Below, in pieces: positions 7,936-63,428 of a stretch of DNA of 64,000 bases. Position numbers and translations under genes: made by a program. Numbering within the stretch: the first letter of the stretch is position 1; the number at the start of each line of letters is the position of its first letter. This stretch comes from Clytia hemisphaerica. Its lineage: Eukaryota. Under the pieces are notes generated by a model. It saw nothing but the letters and a program-made list of their open reading frames with translations. It searched no databases and had not been told where the DNA came from. The stretch covers positions 3,292,497 to 3,356,496 of the forward strand of contig NW_027103286.1 in assembly GCF_902728285.1 (NCBI RefSeq), written 5' to 3'.

Positions 7936-8111
7936 TTCTCCTTTTGTTAAACAATAGAACCTATTGTTTGTTTTAAAAGGAAAAGAGAATTTGAAATGGA
8001 GAGGAAATTCTCCCTCAGAGCCATCGTAATATTGTCCCGATTTTCTTTCTTTTATCATCCTAGCTTAATAATGTTGCACAATCTCTCTAAGCTAATAAAT
8101 TTTCTCTTTAG

Positions 8112-9127
8112 TACGGAAAATGGAGAGAGTACGATCAATGTGGAGCAAGGAGTTGACAACAAGTACCATTGTTCACAATGCCCCAAAATGTATACAAGAA
8201 ACCATAGGCTGAAACTTCATGTTCAGCAAGCACATGGGTTGCCAAGCACCAAAGATCGTCACAAACAAGCTTGCGATGAACCTGGTTGTCAACATACATT
8301 TTATAAGAGGAAGGATCTGGTTCAACATCAAAAGATTGCTCATAAAATTGAGTTTGATGAAAGAAACTTTCAATTTGATACCATGGAAGATTTTTATCAT
8401 TGGAAAGAACAGGAGGAAATTTCGAATCATGTTTATTTTACTAAACAAGGTAGCAAAAAGAAGGGAACAACCACCTACCTTTTCTGTCAATTTGATGGCC
8501 ATATTCACTCGCACAAAAAGAAAGGAGAGCCTCACCGAAAGACTGATCGCAGACAGACTTACGGCGTACTAAAAACAGGGTTGATATGTCCAGCTAGAAT
8601 AATAGTTACAGAGAAAGCCACTACTGTCGAGGTTGAATATATTGCAACACACAATCATGACGTGAAGCTTGAAGATACGAAACATCAGTCCCTTAAAATC
8701 GGCAAAAATGTGAGCAATGAATGGTTTGTGCATTCTTTGAACTTGCCAGGAGTTTCTTATACAGTCAAAAAGATTGTCGACGATTGTCTTTGCGAAGAAG
8801 AAAGAACGGAGAACGACCTGTAGCCATTTGTACACATGCAACTGCTCATGCCCGCTCCCTATTTGCAAACATGTGTTCAAAGTTAATTTCTCTTATAAAA
8901 GACCTAAAAGGAAGTCGAAAAAGCAATCGCAAATTGTCGAGGACAACTTTCAAGAAGAAGAAGATCTTATAGATTACGATACAAAAGAGCAATATTTGAA
9001 TATGTTGGAACATTTCAAGAAATACGCGGAGAATCCCTCTTTTACGGATGAAATGATGGAACTGCTAACTCAAGAATTGAATGAAATAAGACTTAAAACT
9101 GAAGCGCTGCTTTCTACTTCCACCTAA
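8112..9127 (+). pseudogene. Zinc-finger gene B module exon (C2H2 pair + FLYWCH-type finger + Cys-rich tail); the reading frame breaks at about 8818-8822 (probable 2-bp deletion, ctgt[gc]agcc); possibly a pseudogene, a truncated protein or a sequence error
   Basis: ORF 7996..8823 (frame 1) continues as ORF 8774..9127 (frame 2); by alignment to gene A (EDGLCSHIYICDC vs ENDL*/TTCSHLYTCNC) the shift sits at CTGTAGCC. Confidence 0.5.
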
Positions 9128-12950: not shown

Positions 12951-14081
12951 TCATTCTTCACAACTCGATAGCGTGTAATGTTTCAATGTCTTCAATTTCA
13001 GAATTTCACTTACAGTATTTCGTGATAATTTACACCGCACATGGATACTCTCCAAACTCTCACATTCCTTAACAACGCGCAATACGGCATCGTCAAGTTC
13101 GGCATTTGGTGATGACGTCACTTCTAAAACACGCAAAGTTTGTTTGTAGATCATGGAGGCGAGATTTATATGTTCGTTGACTGTGGCTTGAAAGTATAGC
13201 TTTAAGCTGGATACGGGCACTTCCGGTAACATAATACGGAAGGTGGATTGTAGCGGATAAGTTGGATCGAAATGTAGCTCGATTCGTAGATCAGGGATGG
13301 CTTGACGTATCGAATTCCAATCGTCGCCACTCAAACATTTAAAGAATTTATCCGCGCGTTTAAAAGTGAGCGAAAGGAATTTCAATTTGGTTGTTTCGGA
13401 GATCTGTTTCAGAGCTTCTCCTTCAAAGCACGAGTATGGGATATGTAAAGTGTTCAGGTTAGATGCTTTCGAAACGAATTTAGCGATACACTTAGCAGAG
13501 ATCCGACCCATAAGGATTTTGTTTTGGATGTTCAATTGTTCTAAGCTATCTGCGTGGTTTTGAGTAATGATGTTTAGCAAGTCATCATCAAACGCTACTG
13601 GGAACTTCGATAGGTCGATTTGTTTCAACGGTTGTTTGAAAGATGGATGAAGGAAAAAATTCTTCAATGTGCCCAGTAAGAGGTGCCCAGAATAAAATAA
13701 AGGATTCTCTTCACAAAATTCGAGCGTGAAATTTTCCAGTCTCAGAGTTGGCTGTCCAACTAAAGCTTCCAAAAAGGCACAAGTATTCGTTCGGTTATTC
13801 TTAGCGCTCTGATGACATTTGATGTGTAGGTTTTTGAAGTATTTCCCATAATGCTTTGCGACAAGTTCTAATTTAGCATCTCTTTCTTCTTTGAAAATCA
13901 CAATGACGTCATTCCACAGGTGTCCCACACAAAGCGAGCGGTACCAACGCCGACATGCGGACGCTGCTTGATAGCGGTCAACCAAATCTAAACCGGTTAA
14001 AATTTCAACGCAAATTTCTTCCGGAAGTAATTGCCAATCGTGTTGCATGCTTGATAGATTGTACATTTTTAAAGTTTTCAA
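12951..14081 (-). CDS. Intronless F-box protein with an LRR-like C-terminus (376 aa; F-box = LPEEICVEILTGLDLVDRYQAASACRRWYRSL)
   Basis: Uninterrupted 1131-nt ORF; F-box consensus (LP.EI...IL..L...DL.....VCK.W) near the N-terminus; regularly spaced leucines later. Confidence 0.65.
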   Translation of the reverse strand: MKTLKMYNLSSMQHDWQLLPEEICVEILTGLDLVDRYQAASACRRWYRSLCVGHLWNDVIVIFKEERDAKLELVAKHYGKYFKNLHIKCHQSAKNNRTNTCAFLEALVGQPTLRLENFTLEFCEENPLFYSGHLLLGTLKNFFLHPSFKQPLKQIDLSKFPVAFDDDLLNIITQNHADSLEQLNIQNKILMGRISAKCIAKFVSKASNLNTLHIPYSCFEGEALKQISETTKLKFLSLTFKRADKFFKCLSGDDWNSIRQAIPDLRIELHFDPTYPLQSTFRIMLPEVPVSSLKLYFQATVNEHINLASMIYKQTLRVLEVTSSPNAELDDAVLRVVKECESLESIHVRCKLSRNTVSEILKLKTLKHYTLSSCEE

Positions 14082-31809: not shown

Positions 31810-31888
31810 CGATGTTTCGACAGGCGAATCCAATGTAATCTGGTACGGAAAACAATTTGGTTTCTGATGCAAAATTGCCATTTTCGTA
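31810..31888 (-). CDS. MVP: MVP exon 17 (YENGNFASETKLFSVPDYIGFACRNI); its 3' splice site is the seed of the adjacent minisatellite
   Basis: Acceptor ctttcag, donor G|GTATGT; matches ETAKLFSVPDFVGDACKAIA. Confidence 0.8.
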
Positions 31889-33497
31889 CTGAAAGAAAAG
31901 AGAAAGAGGTCAATTATTTGTATGAAATTGCCATTTTCATACTGAAAGAAAAGAGAAAGAGGTCAGTTATTTGTATGAAATTGCCATTTTCATACTGAAA
32001 GAAAAGAGAAAGAGGTCAGTTATTTGTATGAAATTGCCCATTTTCGTACTGAAAGAAAAGAGAAAGAAGGTCAGTTTATTTGTATGAAATTGCCATTTTC
32101 GTACTGAAAGAAAAGAGAAAGAGGTCAGTTATTTGTATGAAATTGCCATTTTCGTACTGAAAGAAAGAGAAAGAGGTCAATTATTTGTATGAATTGCCAT
32201 TTTCATACTGAAAGAAAAGAGAAAGAGGTCAGTTATTTGTATGAAATTGCCATTTTCGTACTGAAAGAAAAGAGAAAGAGGTCAGTTATTTGTATGAAAT
32301 TGCCATTTTCGTACTGAAAGAAAAGAGAAAGAGGTCAATTATTTGTATGAAATTGCCATTTTCGTACTGAAAGAAAGAGAAAGAGGTCAGTTATTGTATG
32401 AAATTGCCATTTTCGTACTGAACAAAAGAGAAAGAGGTCAATTATTGTATGAAATTGCCATTTTCATACTGAAAGAAAAGAGAAAGAGGTCAGTTATTTG
32501 TATGAAATTGCCATTTTCGTACTGAAAGAAAAGAGAAAGAGGTCAATTATTTGTATGAAATTGCCATTTTCATACTGAAAGAAAAGAGAAAGAGGTCAGT
32601 TATTTGTATGAAATTGCCATTTTCATACTGAAAGAAAGAGAAAGAGGTCAGTTATTTGTATGAAATTGCCATTTTCGTACTGAAAGAAAAGAGAAAGAGG
32701 TCAGTTATTTGTATGAAATTGCCATTTTCATACTGAAAGAAAAGAGAAAGAGGTCAGTTTTTGTATGAAATTGCCATTTTCGTACTGAAAGAAAAGAGAA
32801 AGAGGTCAGTTATTTGTATGAAATTGCCATTTTCGTACTGAAAGAAGAGAAAAGAGGTCAGTTATTTGTATGACATTGCCATTTTCATACTGAAAGAAAA
32901 GAGAAAGAGGTCAGTTATTTGTATGAAATTGCCATTTTCGTACTGAAAGAAAAGAGAAAGAGGTCAGTTATTTGTATGAAATTGCCATTTTCATACTGAA
33001 AGAAAAGAGAAAGAGGTCAGTTATTTGTATGAAATTGCCATTTTCGTACTGAAAGAAAAGAGAAAGAGGTCAGTTATTTGTATGAAATTGCCATTTTCGT
33101 ACTGAAAGAAAAGAGAAAGAGGTCAGTTATTTGTATAGAAATTGCCATTTCGTACTGAAAGAAAAGAGAAGAGGTCAATTATTTGTATGAAATTGCCATT
33201 TTCATACTGAAGAAAAGAGAAAGAGGTCAGTTTATTTGTATGAAATTGCCATTTTCGTACTGAAAGAAAGAGAAAGAGGTCAGTTTATTGTATGAAATTG
33301 CCATTTTCGTACTGAAAGAAAGAGAAAGAGGTCAGTATTTGTATGAAATTGCCATTTTCGTACTGAAAGAAAAGAGAAAGAGGTCAGTTATTTGTATGAA
33401 ATTGCCATTTTCATACTGAAAGAAAAGAGAAAGAGGTCAGTTATTTGTATGAAATTGCCATTTTCATACTGGAAGAAAAGAGAAAGAGGTCAGTTAT
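31861..33497. repeat. Minisatellite, about 30 copies of a ~52 bp unit (gaaattgccattttcgtactgaaagaaaagagaaagaggtcagttatttgtat); on the minus strand each unit is a polypyrimidine tract + CAG + the first 17 nt of MVP exon 17
   Basis: Periodicity read directly; the first unit overlaps the real exon 17 acceptor at 31888-31890. Confidence 0.9.
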
Positions 33498-33664
33498 TCT
33501 ATTTAGTCGGACACTTATATCAAGAATCAGAGCTTTGGTCTGGCCATTTTTTTGTCTGAGCTTCGGGCTGTTCTCGTATCAGCTTATATAAAGAACACGA
33601 CTTTGGTTCTCTTCGGCGAAGTAAAATTTTGGAAATAAGTTAATCGGGTAGTATAAGTACATAC

Positions 33665-33724
33665 ATCAAATTTATTGTTGGCAGCATATTTGATCTTCAA
33701 TCGTGCATGATCAAGTGTCTCCAC
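33665..33724 (-). CDS. MVP: MVP exon 16 (VETLDHARLKIKYAANNKFD)
   Basis: Acceptor caacag, donor GAT|GTATGT. Confidence 0.7.
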
Positions 33725-33871
33725 CTGTTGGGAATTGAAACAAAAGAATTTAAAGGTGAGTAACTATTAAACCCCAAAACAAGGAAGCTTGTTTACAACA
33801 ATGTAAACAATGTAGATAAGATAATTTGGGCAAGCGCTCCTCAGAGCTTTATCTAGCAACATCTGTTTTAC

Positions 33872-33951
33872 CTCAATGATGTCAGTGATATAGTCAGGAC
33901 CAAGCATGATTGCTAAAGATTTCAATGCGTTCTCTTTTTTTGGTTTGCCAG
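33872..33951 (-). CDS. MVP: MVP exon 15 (AGKPKKENALKSLAIMLGPDYITDIIE)
   Basis: Acceptor cttacag, donor GAG|GTAAAA; matches [20 protein letters not shown]. Confidence 0.75.
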
Positions 33952-34120
33952 CTGTAAGATATAAAGACAAAGAAATTATCATTATCTGATTTGACCTTTT
34001 GAAAAAGAGAAACCTTTTGTGAGTACGATAAACTTATACATGAAAGCAATGCGGTCGGGATTTTTTTTGTGGGCATATAAAAGTATTTAGGAAAGACAAG
34101 GGACAGAAGATAAAACCTAC

Positions 34121-39218: not shown

Positions 39219-42200
39219 TCATTTATGATATTCGAGCTTAGCTTTACTGTTTAAGTAATTGATAAAAAATTGAATTTTTCTCTCGTCACTGCCAGAGTTC
39301 ATCCCGACTGTTTTTTCGGCTTCGGCGAATGGCCAATCCACCTCGACTTGTAAAGAATTCACGGTTCTGATGAAGCCGACGCAATCTTTATTGTTTAGTT
39401 CAATGACCAAACCTTGGGAGCCTATCATGACGTCAGGGATTTTCAACTTGAGCGAGAAAAACTTCATGAAAAACTTGATTTGCTGTTCGTAATATAAGGG
39501 AATTGTAGAATCCAATGGTACACTTTGAATCTCAACTACAGTAAATGGTAATGGACAGAGAGGTTTGGTTTTTGATTGATGAAAGAACTTTAAAAACCAT
39601 TTACATTCCGGTACGTCCATATCGATAATCAGTGACTCGAGTCCGACCATTTTATCCGGGATTTTGAGGACTGATGTCACTTTTCCAGAGGAATCAGTTT
39701 TAACAATATTAGTACTGGTAAAAGATGCCTCCATGTCACGTATGTCTTGAGAAGTCAAATGACTACAAATCTCAAACTTTTGGAACGGGTCTTCATCTAA
39801 CTTCAATGATGTGGCGGTGACAAGTTTAAGGAACCCCATGCATTCTTTATGGTGTTTGTTAATGAGCAACGTGTCACCACCCTTCATACAATCCGGTACT
39901 TTTAAAGTCGTGATATTGTTCTTTTCAAGCAAGTAAACAACTTCCTCAATATAATCAAGCTGTATATCAGACTTTACCTCAGCTGTTTTATCAAACGAAC
40001 TATCAACAATAACAAAATTTCGATCAACACCAATCAGAGCGATTAGGTTTTTGAACTCTGGGGTGTCCATATCAATAATCAAAGTATTTTGTCCAATCAA
40101 ACAATTTGGTCTTTTGAGTTTGAGGTTCATATCATTTATGAAGCTTGCTACTTTAATTGGTTCACCTTCCATAAGCAGTCGCTGGATACTTGCTGTAGAA
40201 TATGGACATTCAACTTGATAATTTGAATAATAAATGAAGTTAATTAACTCTCTGCAAGCATCTATAGCTGTGTTGATGATTATAGAGTCAGTATCTACCA
40301 TAGATCTAGGAAGTTCAAGTTTGAGATTCGAAGATTCAATAATGTATTTGATCTGTTCTATATTCTTTTGATTTATTTGACTGTGGATTTCGATCGATGT
40401 CATTGGATAAACTGGTTTCAATTGCAGATCATAAGCAACGTTTATATGATGTCTACACTCTGGAAAATTCGTATTGATAATAATCGAGTCAGTACTAACC
40501 ATACAGCTAGGAATGTCGAGTTTTAAATTCGAGGCTTTGATAATATATTGTATTTTTCTCATATCTGTACGATTGATTTGACTGTGAATTTCGATCGAAG
40601 TTGCAGGATAAACTGGTTGTAATTGCAGATCATAAGCAATGTTTATATGATATCTACATTCGGGGGAATTCGTGTTGATAATTAAAACATCAGAGCCGAT
40701 CATACAATCGGGGACTTTTAATTTCAAATTCAAACGTTTGATAATAGACGGTAATTTATCTTTGATGAATTGTTCATCCTCAGGCTTTAAAAATGCTTCG
40801 CCTGCAGAAAATGGATATTTGACGTAAGAATATGGACAATCCACCGACGCCCTAGTTCTATGGACAATTTTCATAAATTGGATACATTCAGTGTTCCTAG
40901 TGTTAACGACTAAAGCATTAGTGCTTTTCATCACGCGTGGAAGTCTTAATACGAGATTCAGATGTTGAACAAGAAAACTCACGAGGTCGAAGTCAAAATT
41001 AACCTCAAAGGTGATGTCAGCTTTGGCAAAGAGATGATCTTTTGATGTTAACTTCGAATCTCTCAAAAACTTAACCCACTGTTTACATTCTGGTATTGCA
41101 GTATTAATGATGAGACTATCCACGCCCTGCATACATCTAGGTATTTTAAGCTTGAGATTCAAATGTTCGACAAGGAAAACGACATTCCTCAAATCAATTC
41201 CACGAAGATCACATTTGATCTCCACTGTAGAAAATGGGCATTCTACGCGCATGCGTCCTTCATAGAGCGTCGTCATGAATTCTTGGCATTCTGGGATTTC
41301 AGAATTAACGATCAGGCTGTCCGGTCCAAACATACAATCTGGTATTTCAACAACACTATTCTTTACCAGGTACCTTTCAAATCTCCAGGATCTGAAGGGC
41401 TGTACAAATCTTCCATACATGGATGACCTACTCCGATGTAAATCAGATAGCCGTCTGAAGAATTTAATGAAAACGTCGTTCTCGTTCAAAAGTCGACCGA
41501 TACCGAACATAACAGGTGCACAACTTGAAAGCTCGCGGTTTCTTAAATATGGAGAGATTCCTTTAGTAACGTACAAATGAAGTCCTGTCAGGAATTCCTG
41601 AAGAACTAAGTGCTTGTACTGGTAAATCGGTTCTCGCATTTCACCACGATTGTATTTGACGATAAGACCCGTTTGCTCAAGATGTACGGGACATTTCAAT
41701 TGACGAACCTCCTCTTCAGAAAACAATACCTGGTTTTTCATATAAGTTTTTACCGATAAAGTCATCAATGAATAAATACAATCGATCACATTAGCATCGT
41801 CAAGCATTTCAAGCAAGTTGTCATAGCCTTTATTACATAAACCTTGTAAATGTTTCCTCAAAAAGACAAGGCATGCATACATGTTAAGTTCAGTGTAAGT
41901 ATTTAACGGTTTCGTTATGAGATCCTCGCTGTACACGTTACAGATGACCCAAGCAAACACGGGAACGGTAGACATGACTTTCAAATTATGCGATGACCTA
42001 ATGATCTCCTTCACTCGAATGGCTTTTTCAGTGTTCTCGTTAAAGAATTTATCGATGTATTGTTCGACTTCCTCCTCTTTGAAACCGCAAACCTCAACTG
42101 TTTTTATTTTGATCACCTTTCTGCTGGAAATTTTTAACTCCAGAATCTCTTTCTTTACAAAGTCACACGCTTTTGGTCTCCCAGATGCAATACATTTGTG

Positions 42201-42869
42201 GCCTTTCAAAATAGAACCTTGTGTGTTGATAAGATCGAAGACGATTTGAAAAGGAGTCAGACTTTTGACTTTCATCTTGGATTTATTCTTGGAGCGATCG
42301 TAAACACCTTGTAATTCGTCGAGCCCGTCAATGATTACCAGAATTTTATCCGCAACTGGTTCGAGATCTCTCAATGTGATCTTTTCGAAAATGTCAGGGT
42401 ATTTGATTTTAAATAGATCATCAATTGATTCCAGCTTGTCGTAGATTTGATTGATTTCACGGCATGAAAAGAAGAAGACAAACTCCATCGGGAAATCTAA
42501 TCCAAGTTGACGTTTGGCCCATTTCTGGGTATACATTTCAAGCATGGTTGTTTTTCCCATGCCACCCACAGCACGAACAAAAACTGCTTCATCCTCCTTC
42601 TGGAACAAGTCATGGAGTTCTATACTTTCTTTCTGTAAAAGCCTTTGTTCCATCAGCGCCTTACGGTCCGAATTATTGATCTCTTTTTCAACCTCGGTTG
42701 CTTTGAGGACCGCTAGTTCAGTGTATAAGTTTTCATCGTATTGGTAATTGACTTGATTCTTGTCTCCCATCAAAGGCTCGTGAACGAGTGACGTAATCAC
42801 TTCCTTAGCGTATTGACATCGTAATTTTAACGATGCTGATTGGATATCTAAAAAAAAGAATTTTGACAT
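39219..42869 (-). CDS. Intronless NACHT-family NTPase (NLR-like), 1216 aa: short N-terminal region, Walker A VGGMGKTT, Walker B ILVIIDGLDEL, then about 11 copies of a ~90-aa repeat with core NLKL.IPDCM.G.D.LIINT..PEC..F; nested in MVP intron 3, same strand
   Basis: Single 3651-nt ORF, the longest in the window; P-loop and DGLDE motifs read directly; the repeat period is visible in protein and DNA (40260-40700 holds two near-identical units). Confidence 0.85.
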   Translation of the reverse strand: MSKFFFLDIQSASLKLRCQYAKEVITSLVHEPLMGDKNQVNYQYDENLYTELAVLKATEVEKEINNSDRKALMEQRLLQKESIELHDLFQKEDEAVFVRAVGGMGKTTMLEMYTQKWAKRQLGLDFPMEFVFFFSCREINQIYDKLESIDDLFKIKYPDIFEKITLRDLEPVADKILVIIDGLDELQGVYDRSKNKSKMKVKSLTPFQIVFDLINTQGSILKGHKCIASGRPKACDFVKKEILELKISSRKVIKIKTVEVCGFKEEEVEQYIDKFFNENTEKAIRVKEIIRSSHNLKVMSTVPVFAWVICNVYSEDLITKPLNTYTELNMYACLVFLRKHLQGLCNKGYDNLLEMLDDANVIDCIYSLMTLSVKTYMKNQVLFSEEEVRQLKCPVHLEQTGLIVKYNRGEMREPIYQYKHLVLQEFLTGLHLYVTKGISPYLRNRELSSCAPVMFGIGRLLNENDVFIKFFRRLSDLHRSRSSMYGRFVQPFRSWRFERYLVKNSVVEIPDCMFGPDSLIVNSEIPECQEFMTTLYEGRMRVECPFSTVEIKCDLRGIDLRNVVFLVEHLNLKLKIPRCMQGVDSLIINTAIPECKQWVKFLRDSKLTSKDHLFAKADITFEVNFDFDLVSFLVQHLNLVLRLPRVMKSTNALVVNTRNTECIQFMKIVHRTRASVDCPYSYVKYPFSAGEAFLKPEDEQFIKDKLPSIIKRLNLKLKVPDCMIGSDVLIINTNSPECRYHINIAYDLQLQPVYPATSIEIHSQINRTDMRKIQYIIKASNLKLDIPSCMVSTDSIIINTNFPECRHHINVAYDLQLKPVYPMTSIEIHSQINQKNIEQIKYIIESSNLKLELPRSMVDTDSIIINTAIDACRELINFIYYSNYQVECPYSTASIQRLLMEGEPIKVASFINDMNLKLKRPNCLIGQNTLIIDMDTPEFKNLIALIGVDRNFVIVDSSFDKTAEVKSDIQLDYIEEVVYLLEKNNITTLKVPDCMKGGDTLLINKHHKECMGFLKLVTATSLKLDEDPFQKFEICSHLTSQDIRDMEASFTSTNIVKTDSSGKVTSVLKIPDKMVGLESLIIDMDVPECKWFLKFFHQSKTKPLCPLPFTVVEIQSVPLDSTIPLYYEQQIKFFMKFFSLKLKIPDVMIGSQGLVIELNNKDCVGFIRTVNSLQVEVDWPFAEAEKTVGMNSGSDERKIQFFINYLNSKAKLEYHK

Positions 42870-42924
42870 GAATGCTACTGAATCTCTGTCGTCTCAGTAT
42901 TTGAAGTTTTTTAGAGAATACAGT

Positions 42925-43090
42925 TGGGTCTCTCTAATTCGATCTTTAAGGGGGAAAGAATTTTCTTCGAATTGGAGAAAGATTCGAGCTACAGAAAATA
43001 TTTTGGATGACTCAACAGCTGAGGAGACCAATGTTTTAGCTCGAATTACAGACATTCGAATGACAGTGGTTCGAATTAGACAGAGTTGAC
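42925..43090. repeat. TCGAATTA/TCGAGCTA SINE-like fragment immediately 5' of the NACHT ORF
   Basis: ctctaattcgatc...gattcgagctacag...ctcgaattacagacattcgaatgacagtggttcgaattagac. Confidence 0.4.
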
Positions 43091-43253
43091 TGTAAGAAGA
43101 TTTACATCGATTAATCTAAAAGTGTGTGATTCAGATGGTTGCTTATAATGTTTAAACAAATTCAAAAGTACACAAATATAAATATTTTTATTACATGAAA
43201 AGTGTCTTCAAAAAGGAATTTTTGAATAGAAATTTCCTTAAAGTACGCTCATG

Positions 43254-43454
43254 CTAACCTTCAGTAACAAGTGTATTCTGCTTGATATTATTGATAATAT
43301 CCACTCCATTTAACCTTTCCAACTCCAATTCTAACCGTGACCATTCGACTGTTTTGAGTTGATCCGTTAGATTTTCATCTTCATTCGACGATAAACCAAG
43401 TCGTAAAAGTAATTGATTTTTCTCTTCCCCAATCTTGTTGGATATAATTTCCAA
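43254..43454 (-). other. 66-aa ORF between the HEPN and NACHT genes (…LLLRLGLSSNEDENLTDQLKTVEWSRLELELERLNGVDIINNIKQ…); could be an upstream coding exon or uORF of the NACHT gene, or noise
   Basis: ORF track; possible donor GAAG|GTTAGC at its 3' end and acceptor ttcagtag just upstream of the NACHT ATG. Confidence 0.2.
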
Positions 43455-43499
43455 AACTTCTGTGGTGCAATATATTCCAGGTTCTTAAAAAACAAAATT

Positions 43500-43920
43500 A
43501 AATTCTCTTAAAAAAGACTCCATGACATAGTACGGTGGAGTCTCCATGACTCGAACACGCACGGGGAACACAAATTTGTTCGAGTTAAGGAAATTTCGAG
43601 TTATATAAGGAGTAAGGTATATGAGGAATTGTTAACTGAAAGGACGAAAAAACTTGTTCGAGTTAATGAGACATTCGAGTTATAGAGGTTCGAGTTAAAG
43701 AGACACTGCTGTATTACTCGTTCGAGAAAGCCGGAATAGAAAGCCGGAGAAGAAAGTGTAAGAAGAGAGAGTAAGTGGGTGTTGATTTAGGGTGACTAAA
43801 AATCTATACAGTGCTCCGGTCAACACGCACGCGGAACACAAATTCATTCGAGGTAAAAGAAGACATTTTAGTCTTAGATTTTCGAGTTAAAGAGACTCCA
43901 CTGAATTATGGTGTTAATCT
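43500..43920. repeat. Two inverted copies of the TCGAGTTA SINE-like family (43500-43720 and 43780-43900), between the HEPN and NACHT genes
   Basis: tctccatgactcgaacacgcacggggaacacaaatttgttcgagttaagga... and cggaacacaaattcattcgaggtaaaag...ttttcgagttaaagagactcc. Confidence 0.5.
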
Positions 43921-43948
43921 GGACAAAAAACTATGAAAATCTTATTAA

Positions 43949-44941
43949 TTAAAATATATGGTGAAAAATACCTTTAAGTGTGGGTAAATTGTCTTTAATA
44001 AATTCATGTTCTTCTTTCAGACGCTCGACAAGGTGATAAAGATTTAAGATGCATTCTTTATTTTCTTGGTGAAAATCTTTGTGGTTCGCCAAGATGGTTG
44101 CATAATCATCCAATCTATCGCTGTGATCTTCAAGCACAATGTCGTGATCTACAAGGGTAGTATCGTGATCTGCAAGGGTAGTGTTGTGATCGCCAAGGGT
44201 AGTGCCATGTTCGTTCAAAGTAGTGTCATGTAAATTTAGGTTTTTATCTAGATTCGAAATTTCTTGGTTCTGAGTCACCATGTCTTTCTTTAATTGAATA
44301 TTATCCGCTCCAACGTGGGAAAGTTCGTTCAATATCTTTTTCGAGAAAAAGGATAAAGATTGAACTACGAGATTATTTGTGACATCAAGTGGTCTGTTTT
44401 TCAATGCGTTGAAATTATAAGTTGTGAGTCCTAAACCTATGACGATATTTTCCCCTTCACTCCATCTCAAGTTGAATTCAACCGAATCAATACTTTTGCC
44501 GTCAGCATGTAAAAGACGATTTCTCCAATCGCGTGCAAGAAGGACAAACGCTGCAGGACTGACGTCGGTTGGATCTAAAGCCTTTTTCCAACCCTTTTTA
44601 GGAGGTGGTAATGTAGTAAAATTGATAATCAAAACAATGATTAGAGTTATGTCAAACGTTTGACTGTCTGTTTGATTTGAGTTTGGGGGAAGTAAAGTAT
44701 CTACTTGGCTTTTCTTTAAAACGCCTTTCTTTGCTAACTGGTTTATTGTACTTTGTTGCTTTCGAAGTTCAATGTTAAGGGCTGTTGAGTTTCTCGGTAA
44801 GCCAACATAATTGGGATCGTTGTAATCATTATGTAAGAGAGCAAGTAGTGCGCCTTTTAGAGGCTCGTGAAGCAGAGTAGCTAATCTAAGCCAATTCTCT
44901 ATCTCTTGAATGGCCTGAGCTACAGTAACGTAGGATGACAT
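43949..44941 (-). CDS. Intronless DZIP3-type HEPN domain protein (330 aa): N-terminal HEPN (FDITLIIVLIINFTTLPPPKKGWKKALDPTDVSPAAFVLLARDWRNRLLHA, Rx4H) and C-terminal 8-aa repeats (DHDTTLVDH...), coiled-coil-like
   Basis: Single ORF; the HEPN_DZIP3 signature (FD..L..L.RN......PP..GW...P...D.S..A.I.R.K..RN...H) read directly. Confidence 0.7.
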   Translation of the reverse strand: MSSYVTVAQAIQEIENWLRLATLLHEPLKGALLALLHNDYNDPNYVGLPRNSTALNIELRKQQSTINQLAKKGVLKKSQVDTLLPPNSNQTDSQTFDITLIIVLIINFTTLPPPKKGWKKALDPTDVSPAAFVLLARDWRNRLLHADGKSIDSVEFNLRWSEGENIVIGLGLTTYNFNALKNRPLDVTNNLVVQSLSFFSKKILNELSHVGADNIQLKKDMVTQNQEISNLDKNLNLHDTTLNEHGTTLGDHNTTLADHDTTLVDHDIVLEDHSDRLDDYATILANHKDFHQENKECILNLYHLVERLKEEHEFIKDNLPTLKGIFHHIF

Positions 44942-56841: not shown

Positions 56842-57129
56842 GTAAGTAATTTCTTTTGATATGAAAGCCAAACTCATTACAATCACGTCAAAACAAACAA
56901 TAATCCTATACCGGATTTTTGATTTAGGGGGCCGGTAATAACCGAATATACCTTTTAAGTCACTTTGAAGCTGAAAGAGTTATGAACACTTTCCATTCTG
57001 TTATGAAAAAGTTTAAACCATTGAAATTGACCTTGGTCTAGAGCTCTAGACGTATCACTGTCTTAGTACACTTCTTACAAAGGATAAAGAACATGAGTGG
57101 CCATATCAAGGTATCTTTCTCCCTCCTAG

Positions 57130-57548
57130 ATGGATCAGGCACCACAACGACCAAAGCACCAGTCACTTCTGCGCCACGTGGCAAGCTCTTTAAACAAGTC
57201 AGCAGCAACAAATGTCTTGGTCATGATCACAACGATAACCTCATCTTCACCAGTCGTTGTCAAACACGCTTTGAAGCAATGGAAGGAAAATTATTCCAGT
57301 CTAATGCACCAGGAGCTAAATGCGCCGAAGCTTTGAGCAACAACAGTGAATCTGGGATTCGTTTCAGAGCTAATTGCGATCAAGGCTTCAGAAAAGTTCA
57401 AAAAGGCAGATATTTTGTCCTTCAACACAAACAAACTGGCAAATGTATTCATCCTAACCGAGGATCATCCAACCCTTCTGATGGAACCAAAGCTGTTATT
57501 TACCATGATTGCAATTCTGGCTCACGTATTCAGTTCAGAGAAGAATAG
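57130..57548 (+). CDS. Astacin terminal exon: Thr-rich linker + ~125-aa Cys-containing C-terminal domain (possible beta-trefoil/lectin-like; not ShK)
   Basis: Acceptor ctccctcctag; ORF through stop TAG 57546-57548. Confidence 0.65.
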
Positions 57549-62927: not shown

Positions 62928-63428
62928 TTGTGTTTTGCATATAAATTCGTAAGTAAGGATGCTACTTCTTCAAATAAGTTTAAAACCGGCGGGAGAAACA
63001 CGATGTATGAATGCGACATTTGCGAAAAGACTTTTTCCAATAAAAGCAATTATAATCGACATGTTGCAAAGGCTCACCCTGAAGAATCTGAAGAAGAAGA
63101 TGAAGAGTCTGATGAAGACTTTACAGACAGCGAGCCCATGTCCAGTGATAGTGAAGAATCTCAAGGTGTTAAAGAAACATTTAATATTTGGGAGAGCATG
63201 TTGAACGAATGTCAAGAGACTGACTTATCAATTCATGAGATTTATAAATATAAAATCCTTTTTCTTCGAGCAATGAAAAAGGATAAAACACATAAATCTG
63301 TGATGGAAACTTTACAAAGGGTTAGAGATGAGGAAGATATGGATTTTGAAGAAGCATTAGATTTTGCTGTTGAAAAACGTCGCTTTCTAATTAATCGACA
63401 AATTCCAAATGATGCAATGAAAGAATGA
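62928..63428 (+). CDS. Arm-encoded 166-aa protein: single C2H2 finger (YECDICEKTFSNKSNYNRHVAKAH) + poly-acidic Ser/Glu stretch; mirrored copy 60248..60622 (-) is truncated by a 1-nt homopolymer difference (a4 vs a5 at ~60268/63283)
   Basis: ORF pair from the track; C2H2 consensus read directly. Confidence 0.45.
   Translation: MCFAYKFVSKDATSSNKFKTGGRNTMYECDICEKTFSNKSNYNRHVAKAHPEESEEEDEESDEDFTDSEPMSSDSEESQGVKETFNIWESMLNECQETDLSIHEIYKYKILFLRAMKKDKTHKSVMETLQRVRDEEDMDFEEALDFAVEKRRFLINRQIPNDAMKE

What the first reader, a model, noticed from the sequence alone, without database searches (positions are those of the whole stretch)
39219..42869. Intronless NACHT NTPase with an apparently undescribed ~90-aa C-terminal repeat
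A 1216-aa single-exon ORF carries a canonical NACHT core (Walker A VGGMGKTT, Walker B ILVIIDGLDEL). Where LRR, WD40, TPR or ANK would normally sit, it has about 11 tandem copies of an 85-95-aa unit with the conserved core N-L-K-L-x-I-P-D-C-M-x-G-x-D-S-L-I-I-N-T-x-x-P-E-C, often followed by E-C-P-Y/F. I do not recognise this repeat. Its conserved Cys/Pro pattern and ~90-residue period suggest a discrete folded domain, possibly a ligand-sensing module. The N-terminal 95 aa before the P-loop is too short for a classical effector domain such as death, CARD, TIR or pyrin.
Basis: partly seen in the sequence, partly recalled or inferred. Interest (0 to 1): 0.9.

Follow-up and report, generated by a model that had tools for sequence, protein, structure and literature searches.

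The report
Jellyfish HEPN-NACHT receptor, unclassified 67-residue repeat
The ORF is the last exon of a three-exon gene of the jellyfish Clytia hemisphaerica that encodes an NLR-like immune-type switch protein with a predicted RNA-cutting (HEPN) head, and where the usual sensor repeats would sit it has ten copies of a 67-residue alpha/beta unit that matches no protein family or solved structure I could search.

Summary
The ORF, the NACHT motifs and the repeat are real, but three details in the finding are wrong. There are 10 full units plus a 23-residue cap, with a period of 67-79 aa (201 nt), not about 11 units of 85-95 aa. The gene is not intronless. Two upstream exons splice in frame to give a 1607-aa protein that is 100% identical to an NCBI Clytia hemisphaerica model. 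The protein does have an effector: exon 1 encodes a DZIP3-type HEPN domain (Pfam E=1.4e-24, Rx4H motif intact) followed by a coiled coil.

Between close paralogs the repeats are 45-51% identical, against 78-86% for HEPN and NACHT, and the number of units varies. I read the repeat as a lineage-restricted sensor module. This is a new variant of a known kind. The AlphaFold database could not be searched.

The parts
43972..44941 (-). Coding exon 1 (aa 1-323, plus the first base of codon 324). It starts at the ATG at 44941 and ends at the donor AAAG|GTATTT.
   Evidence: ORF. Splice model. The product is identical to NCBI protein P0001.
44381..44782 (-). DZIP3/hRUL138-type HEPN domain (aa 54-187), the predicted RNase effector. 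The Rx4H motif RNRLLH lies at 44507..44524 (aa 140-145).
   Evidence: Pfam PF18738: E=1.7e-25 for the ORF alone and 1.4e-24 in the full protein. Motif position.
43973..44341 (-). Predicted coiled-coil segment (aa 201-323). It includes heptad 'H-D-T-T-L-x-D' repeats encoded by a 21-nt tandem repeat (44123..44204).
   Evidence: TRF. Weak Pfam hits to coiled-coil families. The segment is expanded in paralogs P0002 and P0061.
43484..43971 (-). Intron 1 (GT...AG).
43259..43483 (-). Coding exon 2 (75 aa, aa 324-398). It encodes a small domain that looks helical by eye, with a death-domain-like sequence pattern. No helix prediction was run on it and it remains unclassified.
   Evidence: In-frame splice model. 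tblastn. No significant Pfam or PDB-sequence hit. Conserved in paralogs and as a separate exon in L001 and L003.
42848..43258 (-). Intron 2 (GT...AG). It contains the ORF's apparent ATG (42869) inside its polypyrimidine tract.
39219..42847 (-). Coding exon 3 (aa 399-1607 plus the stop codon).
42036..42584 (-). NACHT nucleotide-binding domain (aa 487-669). Walker A GGMGKTT is at 42546..42566. Walker B LVIIDGLDE is at 42315..42341.
   Evidence: Pfam PF05729, E about 1e-17. Coordinates.
41406..42035 (-). Post-NACHT region (aa 670-879), expected to hold the helical and winged-helix domains. It is conserved in all family members.
   Evidence: 83-84% identity to close paralogs. Paralog P0004 has a weak NLRC4_HD2 hit, E=0.003. 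The WH/HD assignment is inferred, not shown for this protein.
39222..41405 (-). Array of ten 67-79-aa alpha/beta repeat units plus a 23-aa cap (aa 880-1607). u1 41205-41405, u2 41004-41204, u3 40776-41003, u4 40575-40775, u5 40374-40574, u6 40173-40373, u7 39960-40172, u8 39723-39959, u9 39501-39722, u10 39291-39500, cap 39222-39290.
   Evidence: Unit alignment. hmmsearch. Non-circular profile test. AF2 models. Coordinates.
40273..40746 (-). Recent tandem duplication at the DNA level: period 201 nt, 77-80% match, covering units u4-u5 (64% aa identity) and part of u6.
   Evidence: TRF. Unit identity matrix.

Best explanation
The ORF is the third and last coding exon of a Clytia hemisphaerica (Hydrozoa, Leptothecata) gene. 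The gene encodes a 1607-aa cytosolic STAND/NLR-like protein with this architecture: DZIP3-type HEPN RNase domain, coiled coil, small unclassified domain, NACHT NTPase, then 10.3 copies of a 67-aa alpha/beta repeat.

Shown here: the gene model, the domain identities, the repeat, its restriction to a small group of NACHT proteins, its lack of any match in Pfam or the PDB, and its faster divergence and variable unit number among paralogs.

Inferred: the repeat array takes the role that LRR, WD40 or TPR arrays play in other NLRs. In the resting state it holds the NACHT module closed. When its variable surface (the strand2-helixB loops and helix A) binds a ligand of pathogen or non-self origin, nucleotide exchange and NACHT oligomerisation follow. 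That brings the N-terminal HEPN domains together. HEPN RNases need two domains side by side to form their composite Rx4-6H active site, so RNase activity switches on and the result is RNA cleavage and translational arrest or cell death.
For: Gene model. GT/AG junctions are all in phase 1 and give one open 4824-nt CDS. The product is 100% identical over 100% of its length to an NCBI Clytia hemisphaerica protein that already carries PF18738 and PF05729. The same HEPN exon / middle exon / NACHT-repeat exon layout, with the junction at about aa 399/400, is seen on contigs of another assembly (L001, L003).

Domains. HEPN_DZIP3 E=1.4e-24 with RNRLLH intact in all four paralogs. NACHT E=1.4e-17.

Published context. 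The DZIP3 HEPN family is listed as fused to the NACHT ATPase in animals (PMC3710099). It is the commonest NACHT partner in C. hemisphaerica, and medusozoans lack NACHT-LRR proteins (PMC8260672). Clytia has 56 NACHT/NB-ARC proteins, of which only 3 have TPR, 3 have WD40 and none has LRR (PMC7642931).

Repeat. 24 units in three paralogs. The profile search of 1.84 billion representative proteins gave only 29 hits. All nine hits of at least 486 aa are NACHT proteins in which the first unit follows the post-NACHT region. The other 20 hits are 78-449-aa fragments.

Structure. AF2 on four units gives pLDDT 91.7 and pTM 0.82. A second run with a different alignment gives 95% DSSP agreement and the same helix-strand-strand-helix-strand pattern in all ten units.

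Sensor-like evolution. Repeats are 45-51% identical between close paralogs, against 78-86% for HEPN, NACHT and the post-NACHT region. Unit numbers are 7, 7, 10, and at least 10 in P0061. There is a recent internal duplication. Substitutions between orthologous units concentrate in the strand2-helixB loop (72%) and helix A (55%), against 40-44% in the strands and helix B.

The tripartite effector-NACHT-repeat logic is the one described for NLRs and bacterial NACHT proteins (bioRxiv 10.1101/2022.07.19.500537).
Against: There is no functional, expression or ligand data for this gene. The only transcript-derived sequence found is a paralog (EukProt TCONS_00024915). Faster divergence of the repeats could reflect relaxed constraint rather than diversifying selection; dN/dS could not be computed because the paralog CDSs were not retrievable. 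HEPN catalytic competence is inferred from the motif only. The high AF2 confidence rests on an alignment I built from register-shifted paralogous units. The full-array model is only moderate (pLDDT 70.6, pTM 0.53). The AlphaFold database libraries were unavailable, so 'no known fold' holds only for Pfam and the PDB.
Confidence: 0.6

Rival explanations
1. The repeat is a very divergent leucine-rich repeat of the ribonuclease-inhibitor type, in which two or three degenerate LRRs make up each 67-aa unit. On this reading the protein is simply a canonical NACHT-LRR receptor.
For: The core L-K-I-P-x-C-M-I-G fits the LxLxxCxL spacing of RI-type LRRs. It was the only stretch that hhalign aligned to a coral NLR LRR. 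The alternating strand/helix pattern is LRR-like in a general way.
Confidence: 0.07
2. The repeat array is real and new but is not a ligand sensor. It would be a structural scaffold, an oligomerisation or localisation module, or only an autoinhibitory lid. Signal input would come from elsewhere, for example the exon-2 domain or the coiled coil.
For: There is no ligand evidence. Some relatives keep only one unit followed by unrelated sequence (P0046, P0047, P0049). One carries an extra C-terminal AIG1 GTPase after the repeats (P0038). So the first unit may be an integral part of the NACHT module rather than a sensor.
Against: The position after the NACHT and post-NACHT region, the variable unit number, the recent internal duplication and the roughly 30-point lower identity than the rest of the protein follow the pattern seen for sensor repeats in NLRs and bacterial NACHT proteins.
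Confidence: 0.2
3. The protein works in self/non-self (allorecognition) incompatibility of the colonial polyp stage rather than in pathogen sensing, by analogy with fungal HET NACHT-repeat proteins.
For: Clytia has a colonial polyp stage (my own knowledge). NACHT and HEPN expansions in sessile marine animals have been linked to kin and non-kin conflict (PMC8195603). Internal repeat duplication resembles the repeat instability of fungal NACHT-WD genes (PMC2873952, title and abstract).
Against: No polymorphism data are available. A cytosolic receptor cannot see a neighbour's cell surface without cell fusion. The known hydrozoan allorecognition loci encode transmembrane proteins (my own knowledge).
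Confidence: 0.08
4. The predicted fold is an AlphaFold artefact of a shallow, hand-built alignment. On this reading the true structure is either a known fold or largely disordered, so the structural novelty is not real.
For: The alignment has only 17 rows, all of them paralogous units. The full-length run drops to pLDDT 70.6 and pTM 0.53, with several stretches below 50.
Against: All five models score 88.9-91.7. A second run with a differently built alignment reproduces 95% of the secondary structure. The hydrophobic periodicity of the consensus matches the predicted helices and strands. The absence of any Pfam or PDB match at the sequence level does not depend on the model.
Confidence: 0.12

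Closest known systems
Cnidarian HEPN_DZIP3-NACHT proteins (anthozoan forms carry C-terminal LRR or WD40 repeats)
   Same: N-terminal DZIP3-type HEPN domain, a coiled-coil or repeat linker, and a central NACHT. The database hits P0005-P0022 from Montipora, Acropora and Dendronephthya have PF18738 and PF05729. This architecture has been reported as the commonest NACHT combination in C. hemisphaerica (PMC8260672).
   Different: The anthozoan proteins end in LRR or WD40 beta-propeller domains (Pfam lists). This protein and its Clytia paralogs end in the 67-aa alpha/beta repeat, which has no Pfam model. Similarity to the anthozoan proteins covers only 7-15% of the query.
Vertebrate NLRs (NACHT-LRR, e.g. 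NLRP3, NLRC4)
   Same: Tripartite effector / NACHT / C-terminal repeat layout. Walker A and the D-G-h-D-E Walker B signature. A post-NACHT region, with a weak NLRC4_HD2 hit in paralog P0004.
   Different: The effector is an RNase-type HEPN domain, not PYD or CARD. The repeats are not LRRs.
RNase L (ankyrin repeats, pseudokinase, HEPN RNase)
   Same: A repeat-domain sensor coupled to a HEPN RNase that is activated by ligand-induced dimerisation (established knowledge). This is the mechanistic analogy for the effector step.
   Different: RNase L has no STAND NTPase. Its HEPN domain is C-terminal and belongs to a different HEPN family, and its sensor is made of ankyrin repeats.
Bacterial NACHT and other STAND defence proteins (bNACHT, Avs) with nuclease or HEPN effectors
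   Same: The same logic of an N-terminal effector (HEPN is among the listed domains), a central STAND NTPase and a rapidly diversifying C-terminal sensor.
   Different: No PADLOC model hits the protein. This is a eukaryotic, intron-containing gene. [quoted passage not shown]
STAS / anti-sigma-factor-antagonist fold

Membership tests
NACHT NTPase (STAND superfamily) | Match to the NACHT profile above the curated threshold | tested here: met
   PF05729, 64.5-65 bits against a cutoff of 26.7, E about 1e-17, profile positions 3-166 of 167.
NACHT NTPase (STAND superfamily) | Walker A GxxxxGK[ST], and Walker B with the D[GAS]hDE signature | tested here: met
   GGMGKTT at aa 493-499. LVIIDGLDE at aa 568-576, which contains D-G-L-D-E. 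Signature as defined in bioRxiv 10.1101/2022.07.19.500537.
NACHT NTPase (STAND superfamily) | Winged-helix and helical extension C-terminal to the NTPase core | tested here: inconclusive
   A conserved 210-aa region follows the NACHT. Only paralog P0004 gives a weak NLRC4_HD2 hit (E=0.003, below cutoff). The region was not modelled.
NLR in the strict sense (NACHT plus leucine-rich repeats) | C-terminal leucine-rich repeats | tested here: not met
NLR-like tripartite receptor (effector, NACHT, repeat array) | N-terminal effector, central NACHT and C-terminal tandem repeats in one polypeptide | tested here: met
   Spliced 1607-aa product identical to the NCBI model. HEPN at aa 54-187, NACHT at aa 487-669, repeats at aa 880-1607.
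DZIP3/hRUL138-like HEPN | Match to PF18738 above threshold, with a conserved Rx4-6H motif | tested here: met
   86.9-90 bits against a cutoff of 27. RNRLLH at aa 140-145, conserved as RN(R/K/F)xxH in all four paralogs.
DZIP3/hRUL138-like HEPN | RNase activity | not testable with these tools
   Needs biochemistry.
Death-fold domain (DD/DED/CARD/PYD) for exon 2 | Profile or structural match to a six-helix death fold | tested here: not met
   No Pfam hit for aa 324-425 at E<=5. The profile of four paralogs against PDB sequences gives a best E of 0.8, to unrelated proteins. The structure was not predicted, so a remote relationship stays open.
WD40 / TPR / ankyrin / HEAT repeats | Match of the C-terminal region to the corresponding repeat profiles | tested here: not met
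   No such Pfam hit at E<=1 to 10. The predicted mixed alpha/beta secondary structure is incompatible with all-alpha (TPR, ANK, HEAT) or all-beta (WD40) repeats.
STAS domain | Significant structural or sequence similarity to STAS / SpoIIAA-like domains | tested here: inconclusive

The most novel reading that the evidence does not exclude
The 67-aa unit (helix, strand, 3-10 turn, strand, helix, strand) is a previously unclassified alpha/beta repeat fold. It would form a new class of sensor domain for metazoan NLR-like STAND receptors, alongside LRR, WD40, TPR and ANK. It would have arisen and expanded by internal duplication in a narrow hydrozoan lineage that has no NACHT-LRR proteins, and it would be coupled to a HEPN RNase output.
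Probability: 0.45. Interest if true: 0.7.

Novelty: new variant of a known kind. Interest (0 to 1): 0.55.

Why it matters
Medusozoan cnidarians have dozens of NACHT proteins but no NACHT-LRRs, and most have no recognised C-terminal domain (PMC8260672; PMC7642931). What these receptors use to sense anything is therefore an open question. This locus gives one concrete answer: a compact, confidently modelled alpha/beta repeat that behaves like a sensor array in evolutionary terms (fast divergence, variable unit number, recent duplication) and falls outside every family I could search. Clytia hemisphaerica is a genetically tractable laboratory jellyfish (my own knowledge), so the prediction that repeat-dependent activation switches on a HEPN RNase can be tested directly. 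The repeat also merits a Pfam entry, which would improve annotation of hydrozoan NLR-like repertoires. Its reach is limited: the family is small (29 representative clusters in 1.84 billion) and appears lineage-restricted, and the overall HEPN-NACHT architecture is already known.

Tried and rejected
1. Single-unit profile A1 in the word-indexed search of 5.8 billion proteins: 90 candidates, none significant. The exhaustive representative search with the same profile worked instead.
2. First attempt at a register-shifted alignment using overlapping four-unit windows. MAFFT aligned the identical residues rather than the registers (A2). I rebuilt it with non-overlapping windows (A3).
3. Divergent-LRR hypothesis: rejected.
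4. Death-domain assignment for exon 2: no support from Pfam or from the profile against PDB sequences. Left as unclassified.
5. Metal-binding or disulfide role for the three Cys per unit: not supported, because the Cys are replaced by S/V/F/I in a third to two thirds of the units from unnamed assemblies.
6. AlphaFold-database fold searches (afdb50, afdb_sample): libraries not available.
7. Retrieval of the genomic DNA of P0001 and P0002 for dN/dS: not on record.
8. PADLOC and NCBIfam scans: nothing relevant.
9. Naming the organism behind ENA assemblies ERZ25072490 and ERZ27264675: not possible with these tools. None of the 20 clusters looked up has a named member except the two or three from Clytia.
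10. Other copies of the gene in the window: none (tblastn).
Full report
OBSERVATION

The 1216-aa ORF at 39219..42869 on the minus strand exists. It matches Pfam NACHT at E=9.6e-18, 65 bits against a cutoff of 26.7. Walker A is GGMGKTT and Walker B is LVIIDGLDE. The Walker B carries the D-G-h-D-E signature that separates NACHT from other STAND NTPases (signature as described in bioRxiv 10.1101/2022.07.19.500537).

The C-terminal 728 residues are a genuine tandem repeat, but not with the stated dimensions. The I-P-x-C-M anchors are spaced 67,67,76,67,67,67,71,79,74 residues apart. Tandem Repeats Finder sees a 201-nt period, which is 67 aa. A unit profile finds ten full units and a 23-residue partial eleventh.

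A non-circular test confirms that the repeat is not chance. A profile built only from the seven units of a paralog scores the ten window units at 30-66 bits each. Two hundred shuffles of the region reach 6.8 bits at most. Units are mostly 18-33% identical to each other. Units u4 and u5 are 64% identical, which marks a recent duplication.

THE GENE IS NOT INTRONLESS AND IT HAS AN EFFECTOR

About 1.1 kb upstream on the same strand lies a 330-aa ORF (43949..44941). It is a DZIP3/hRUL138-type HEPN domain (PF18738, E=1.7e-25) followed by a coiled coil.

Reading the DNA shows three junction features:
- a donor AAAG|GTATTT at 43972;
- a 225-nt middle exon (43483..43259) flanked by TTTTTTAAG| and |GTTAGC;
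- an acceptor TTTTTTTTAG| immediately before 42847.

All junctions are in phase 1. The joined CDS is open for 1607 codons. That product is 100% identical over 100% of its length to an NCBI 'uncharacterized protein [Clytia hemisphaerica]' of 1607 aa, which already carries PF18738 and PF05729. The ORF's own ATG (42869) therefore sits in the polypyrimidine tract of intron 2.

The HEPN Rx4H motif (RNRLLH, aa 140-145) is intact here and in three paralogs.

The 75-aa middle exon looks like a small helical domain by eye, with a death-domain-like pattern. Neither Pfam nor a four-sequence profile against PDB sequences supports that assignment, so I leave it unclassified.

The organism is a leptothecate hydrozoan.

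WHAT IS ALREADY KNOWN

The DZIP3 HEPN family is recorded as fused to NACHT, DEATH, LRR and other domains in animals (PMC3710099). A cnidarian survey found HEPN_DZIP3 to be the commonest NACHT partner in C. hemisphaerica, and found that medusozoans have no NACHT-LRR proteins (PMC8260672). Another count gives Clytia 56 NACHT/NB-ARC proteins, of which 3 have TPR, 3 have WD40 and none has LRR (PMC7642931).

So the HEPN-NACHT architecture is known. What follows the NACHT in most of these proteins is unannotated. I found no paper describing this repeat.

THE REPEAT

A 24-unit alignment from three Clytia paralogs (A1) gave these results:
- Against PDB sequences: nothing (best E=0.21).
- Against Pfam with any single unit: nothing.
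- Against 1.84 billion representative proteins: only 29 hits at E<=1e-3.

All nine hits of at least 486 aa are NACHT proteins in which the first unit follows the same post-NACHT region. The other 20 hits are 78-449-aa fragments, most of them repeat-only. Every hit with a named source is from Clytia hemisphaerica, including a transcript-derived EukProt entry and XP_066919956.1, which is 1663 aa with at least 10 detected units. The rest are unnamed ENA or Logan contigs.

Two contigs of one ENA assembly show the same HEPN exon / middle exon / NACHT-repeat layout at 36-51% identity, with the exon-3 boundary at about aa 399/400. One relative adds a C-terminal AIG1 GTPase. Paralog P0004 and some relatives have zero to two detected units (the second, where present, is marginal at about 2-4 bits), followed by unrelated sequence.

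STRUCTURE

I modelled units 4-7 (272 aa) with AlphaFold2, using an alignment of non-overlapping, register-equivalent windows (17 rows). The mean pLDDT was 91.7 and the pTM 0.82, and all five models scored at least 88.9.

Each unit reads as follows:
- a 14-residue helix;
- a short strand (K-L);
- a 3-10 turn (x-C-M);
- a strand (L-I-I-N);
- a 12-residue helix (P-E-C-x-x-F...);
- a strand (S/T-V-E-I).

The whole array modelled with a different ten-row alignment is less confident (pLDDT 70.6, pTM 0.53). The hydrophobic periodicity of the consensus fits these elements.

There are three limits on these statements. The AlphaFold-database libraries were not available. I could not inspect coordinates. 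The alignment is shallow and hand-built.

EVOLUTIONARY BEHAVIOUR

Against its close paralogs P0002 and P0061, the protein shows these identities:
- HEPN domain: 83.5%
- pre-NACHT segment: 85-86%
- NACHT: 78%
- post-NACHT region: 83-84%
- repeats: 45-51%

Unit numbers differ among paralogs: 7, 7, 10, and at least 10. Orthologous units can be paired across paralogs, with gains or losses of u3, u5 and u9. Substitutions between orthologous units are most frequent in the strand2-helixB loop (72%), the tail (59%) and helix A (55%), and least frequent in the strands and helix B (40-44%).

Only Pro22 and Met25 are near-invariant. The three Cys positions are 34-89% Cys and otherwise S/V/F/I. That argues against an obligatory metal site or disulfide.

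MECHANISM (INFERRED)

By position and by evolutionary behaviour, the array is the counterpart of the LRR, WD40 or TPR sensor of other NLR-like STAND proteins. I propose four steps:
1. In the resting state the array keeps the NACHT closed.
2. Ligand binding to the variable face permits nucleotide exchange and oligomerisation.
3. Oligomerisation brings the HEPN domains side by side.
4. Because HEPN RNases need a dimeric composite active site, RNase activity is switched on, as in RNase L and in bacterial STAND-nuclease defence proteins.

None of these steps is shown here.

The main rivals are these:
- The repeat is a scaffold or lid rather than a sensor (0.2).
- The model is an artefact (0.12).
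- The protein has an allorecognition role (0.08).
- The repeat is a divergent LRR (0.07).

VERDICT

The locus is a new variant of a known kind. It is a HEPN-NACHT NLR-like receptor whose C-terminal array is a lineage-restricted 67-aa alpha/beta repeat with no match in Pfam or the PDB.

Interest is moderate to high for NLR evolution and cnidarian immunity. It is tempered by the small size of the family, the lack of functional data and the unsearched AlphaFold database.

Noticed in passing
window 31872..33498: A 53-bp minisatellite with 30.9 copies at 95% match (consensus AAATTGCCATTTTCGTACTGAAAGAAAAGAGAAAGAGGTCAGTTATTTGTATG). It accounts for the GC-skew spike of 0.30 in the 32001-34000 bin.
   Followed up: partly
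window 12951..14081 (-): A 376-aa ORF with an N-terminal F-box-like domain (PF12937, E=3.6e-9). It is probably an exon of an F-box protein gene.
   Followed up: no
window 7996..8823 (+) and 62928..63428 (+): Two ORFs (275 and 166 aa), each with a single C2H2 zinc finger (E=4.9e-5 and 9e-7). The second also weakly resembles a BED finger, so it may be transposon-derived.
   Followed up: no
window 57093..57548 (+): A 151-aa ORF with a weak, sub-threshold ricin-B-type lectin match (E=0.004, 17.8 bits against a cutoff of 29).
   Followed up: no
window 44123..44204 (-), exon 1: The coiled-coil part of the protein is encoded by a 21-nt tandem repeat (heptads H-D-T-T-L-x-D). It is much expanded in paralogs P0002 and P0061, so there is a second length-variable repeat in the same gene.
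   Followed up: partly
window 43041..43078 and 43657..43705 (introns 2 and 1): Both introns contain short 15-nt tandem motifs built around TAACTCGAA / ATTCGAA. They may be remnants of a dispersed repeat element.
   Followed up: no
L002 218..3280 (ENA ERZ27264675 k141_90844): A relative (P0038, 1020 aa) combines NACHT, two to five detected units of this repeat (two at domain E<=1e-3) and a C-terminal AIG1/GIMAP-type GTPase (PF04548). In that protein the output domain follows the repeats.
   Followed up: partly
L001 3306..8655 and L003 4783..8651 (ENA ERZ25072490): An unnamed eukaryote in an ENA assembly (contigs up to 1.68 Mb) carries several genes with the same HEPN exon / middle exon / NACHT-repeat layout at 36-51% identity to the Clytia protein. 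The organism could not be identified.
   Followed up: partly
P0004 (Clytia paralog, 1151 aa), C-terminal about 270 aa: This paralog shares the HEPN, coiled-coil, middle-domain and NACHT parts but has no repeat units. It ends in an unrelated, also unannotated C-terminal region.
   Followed up: no
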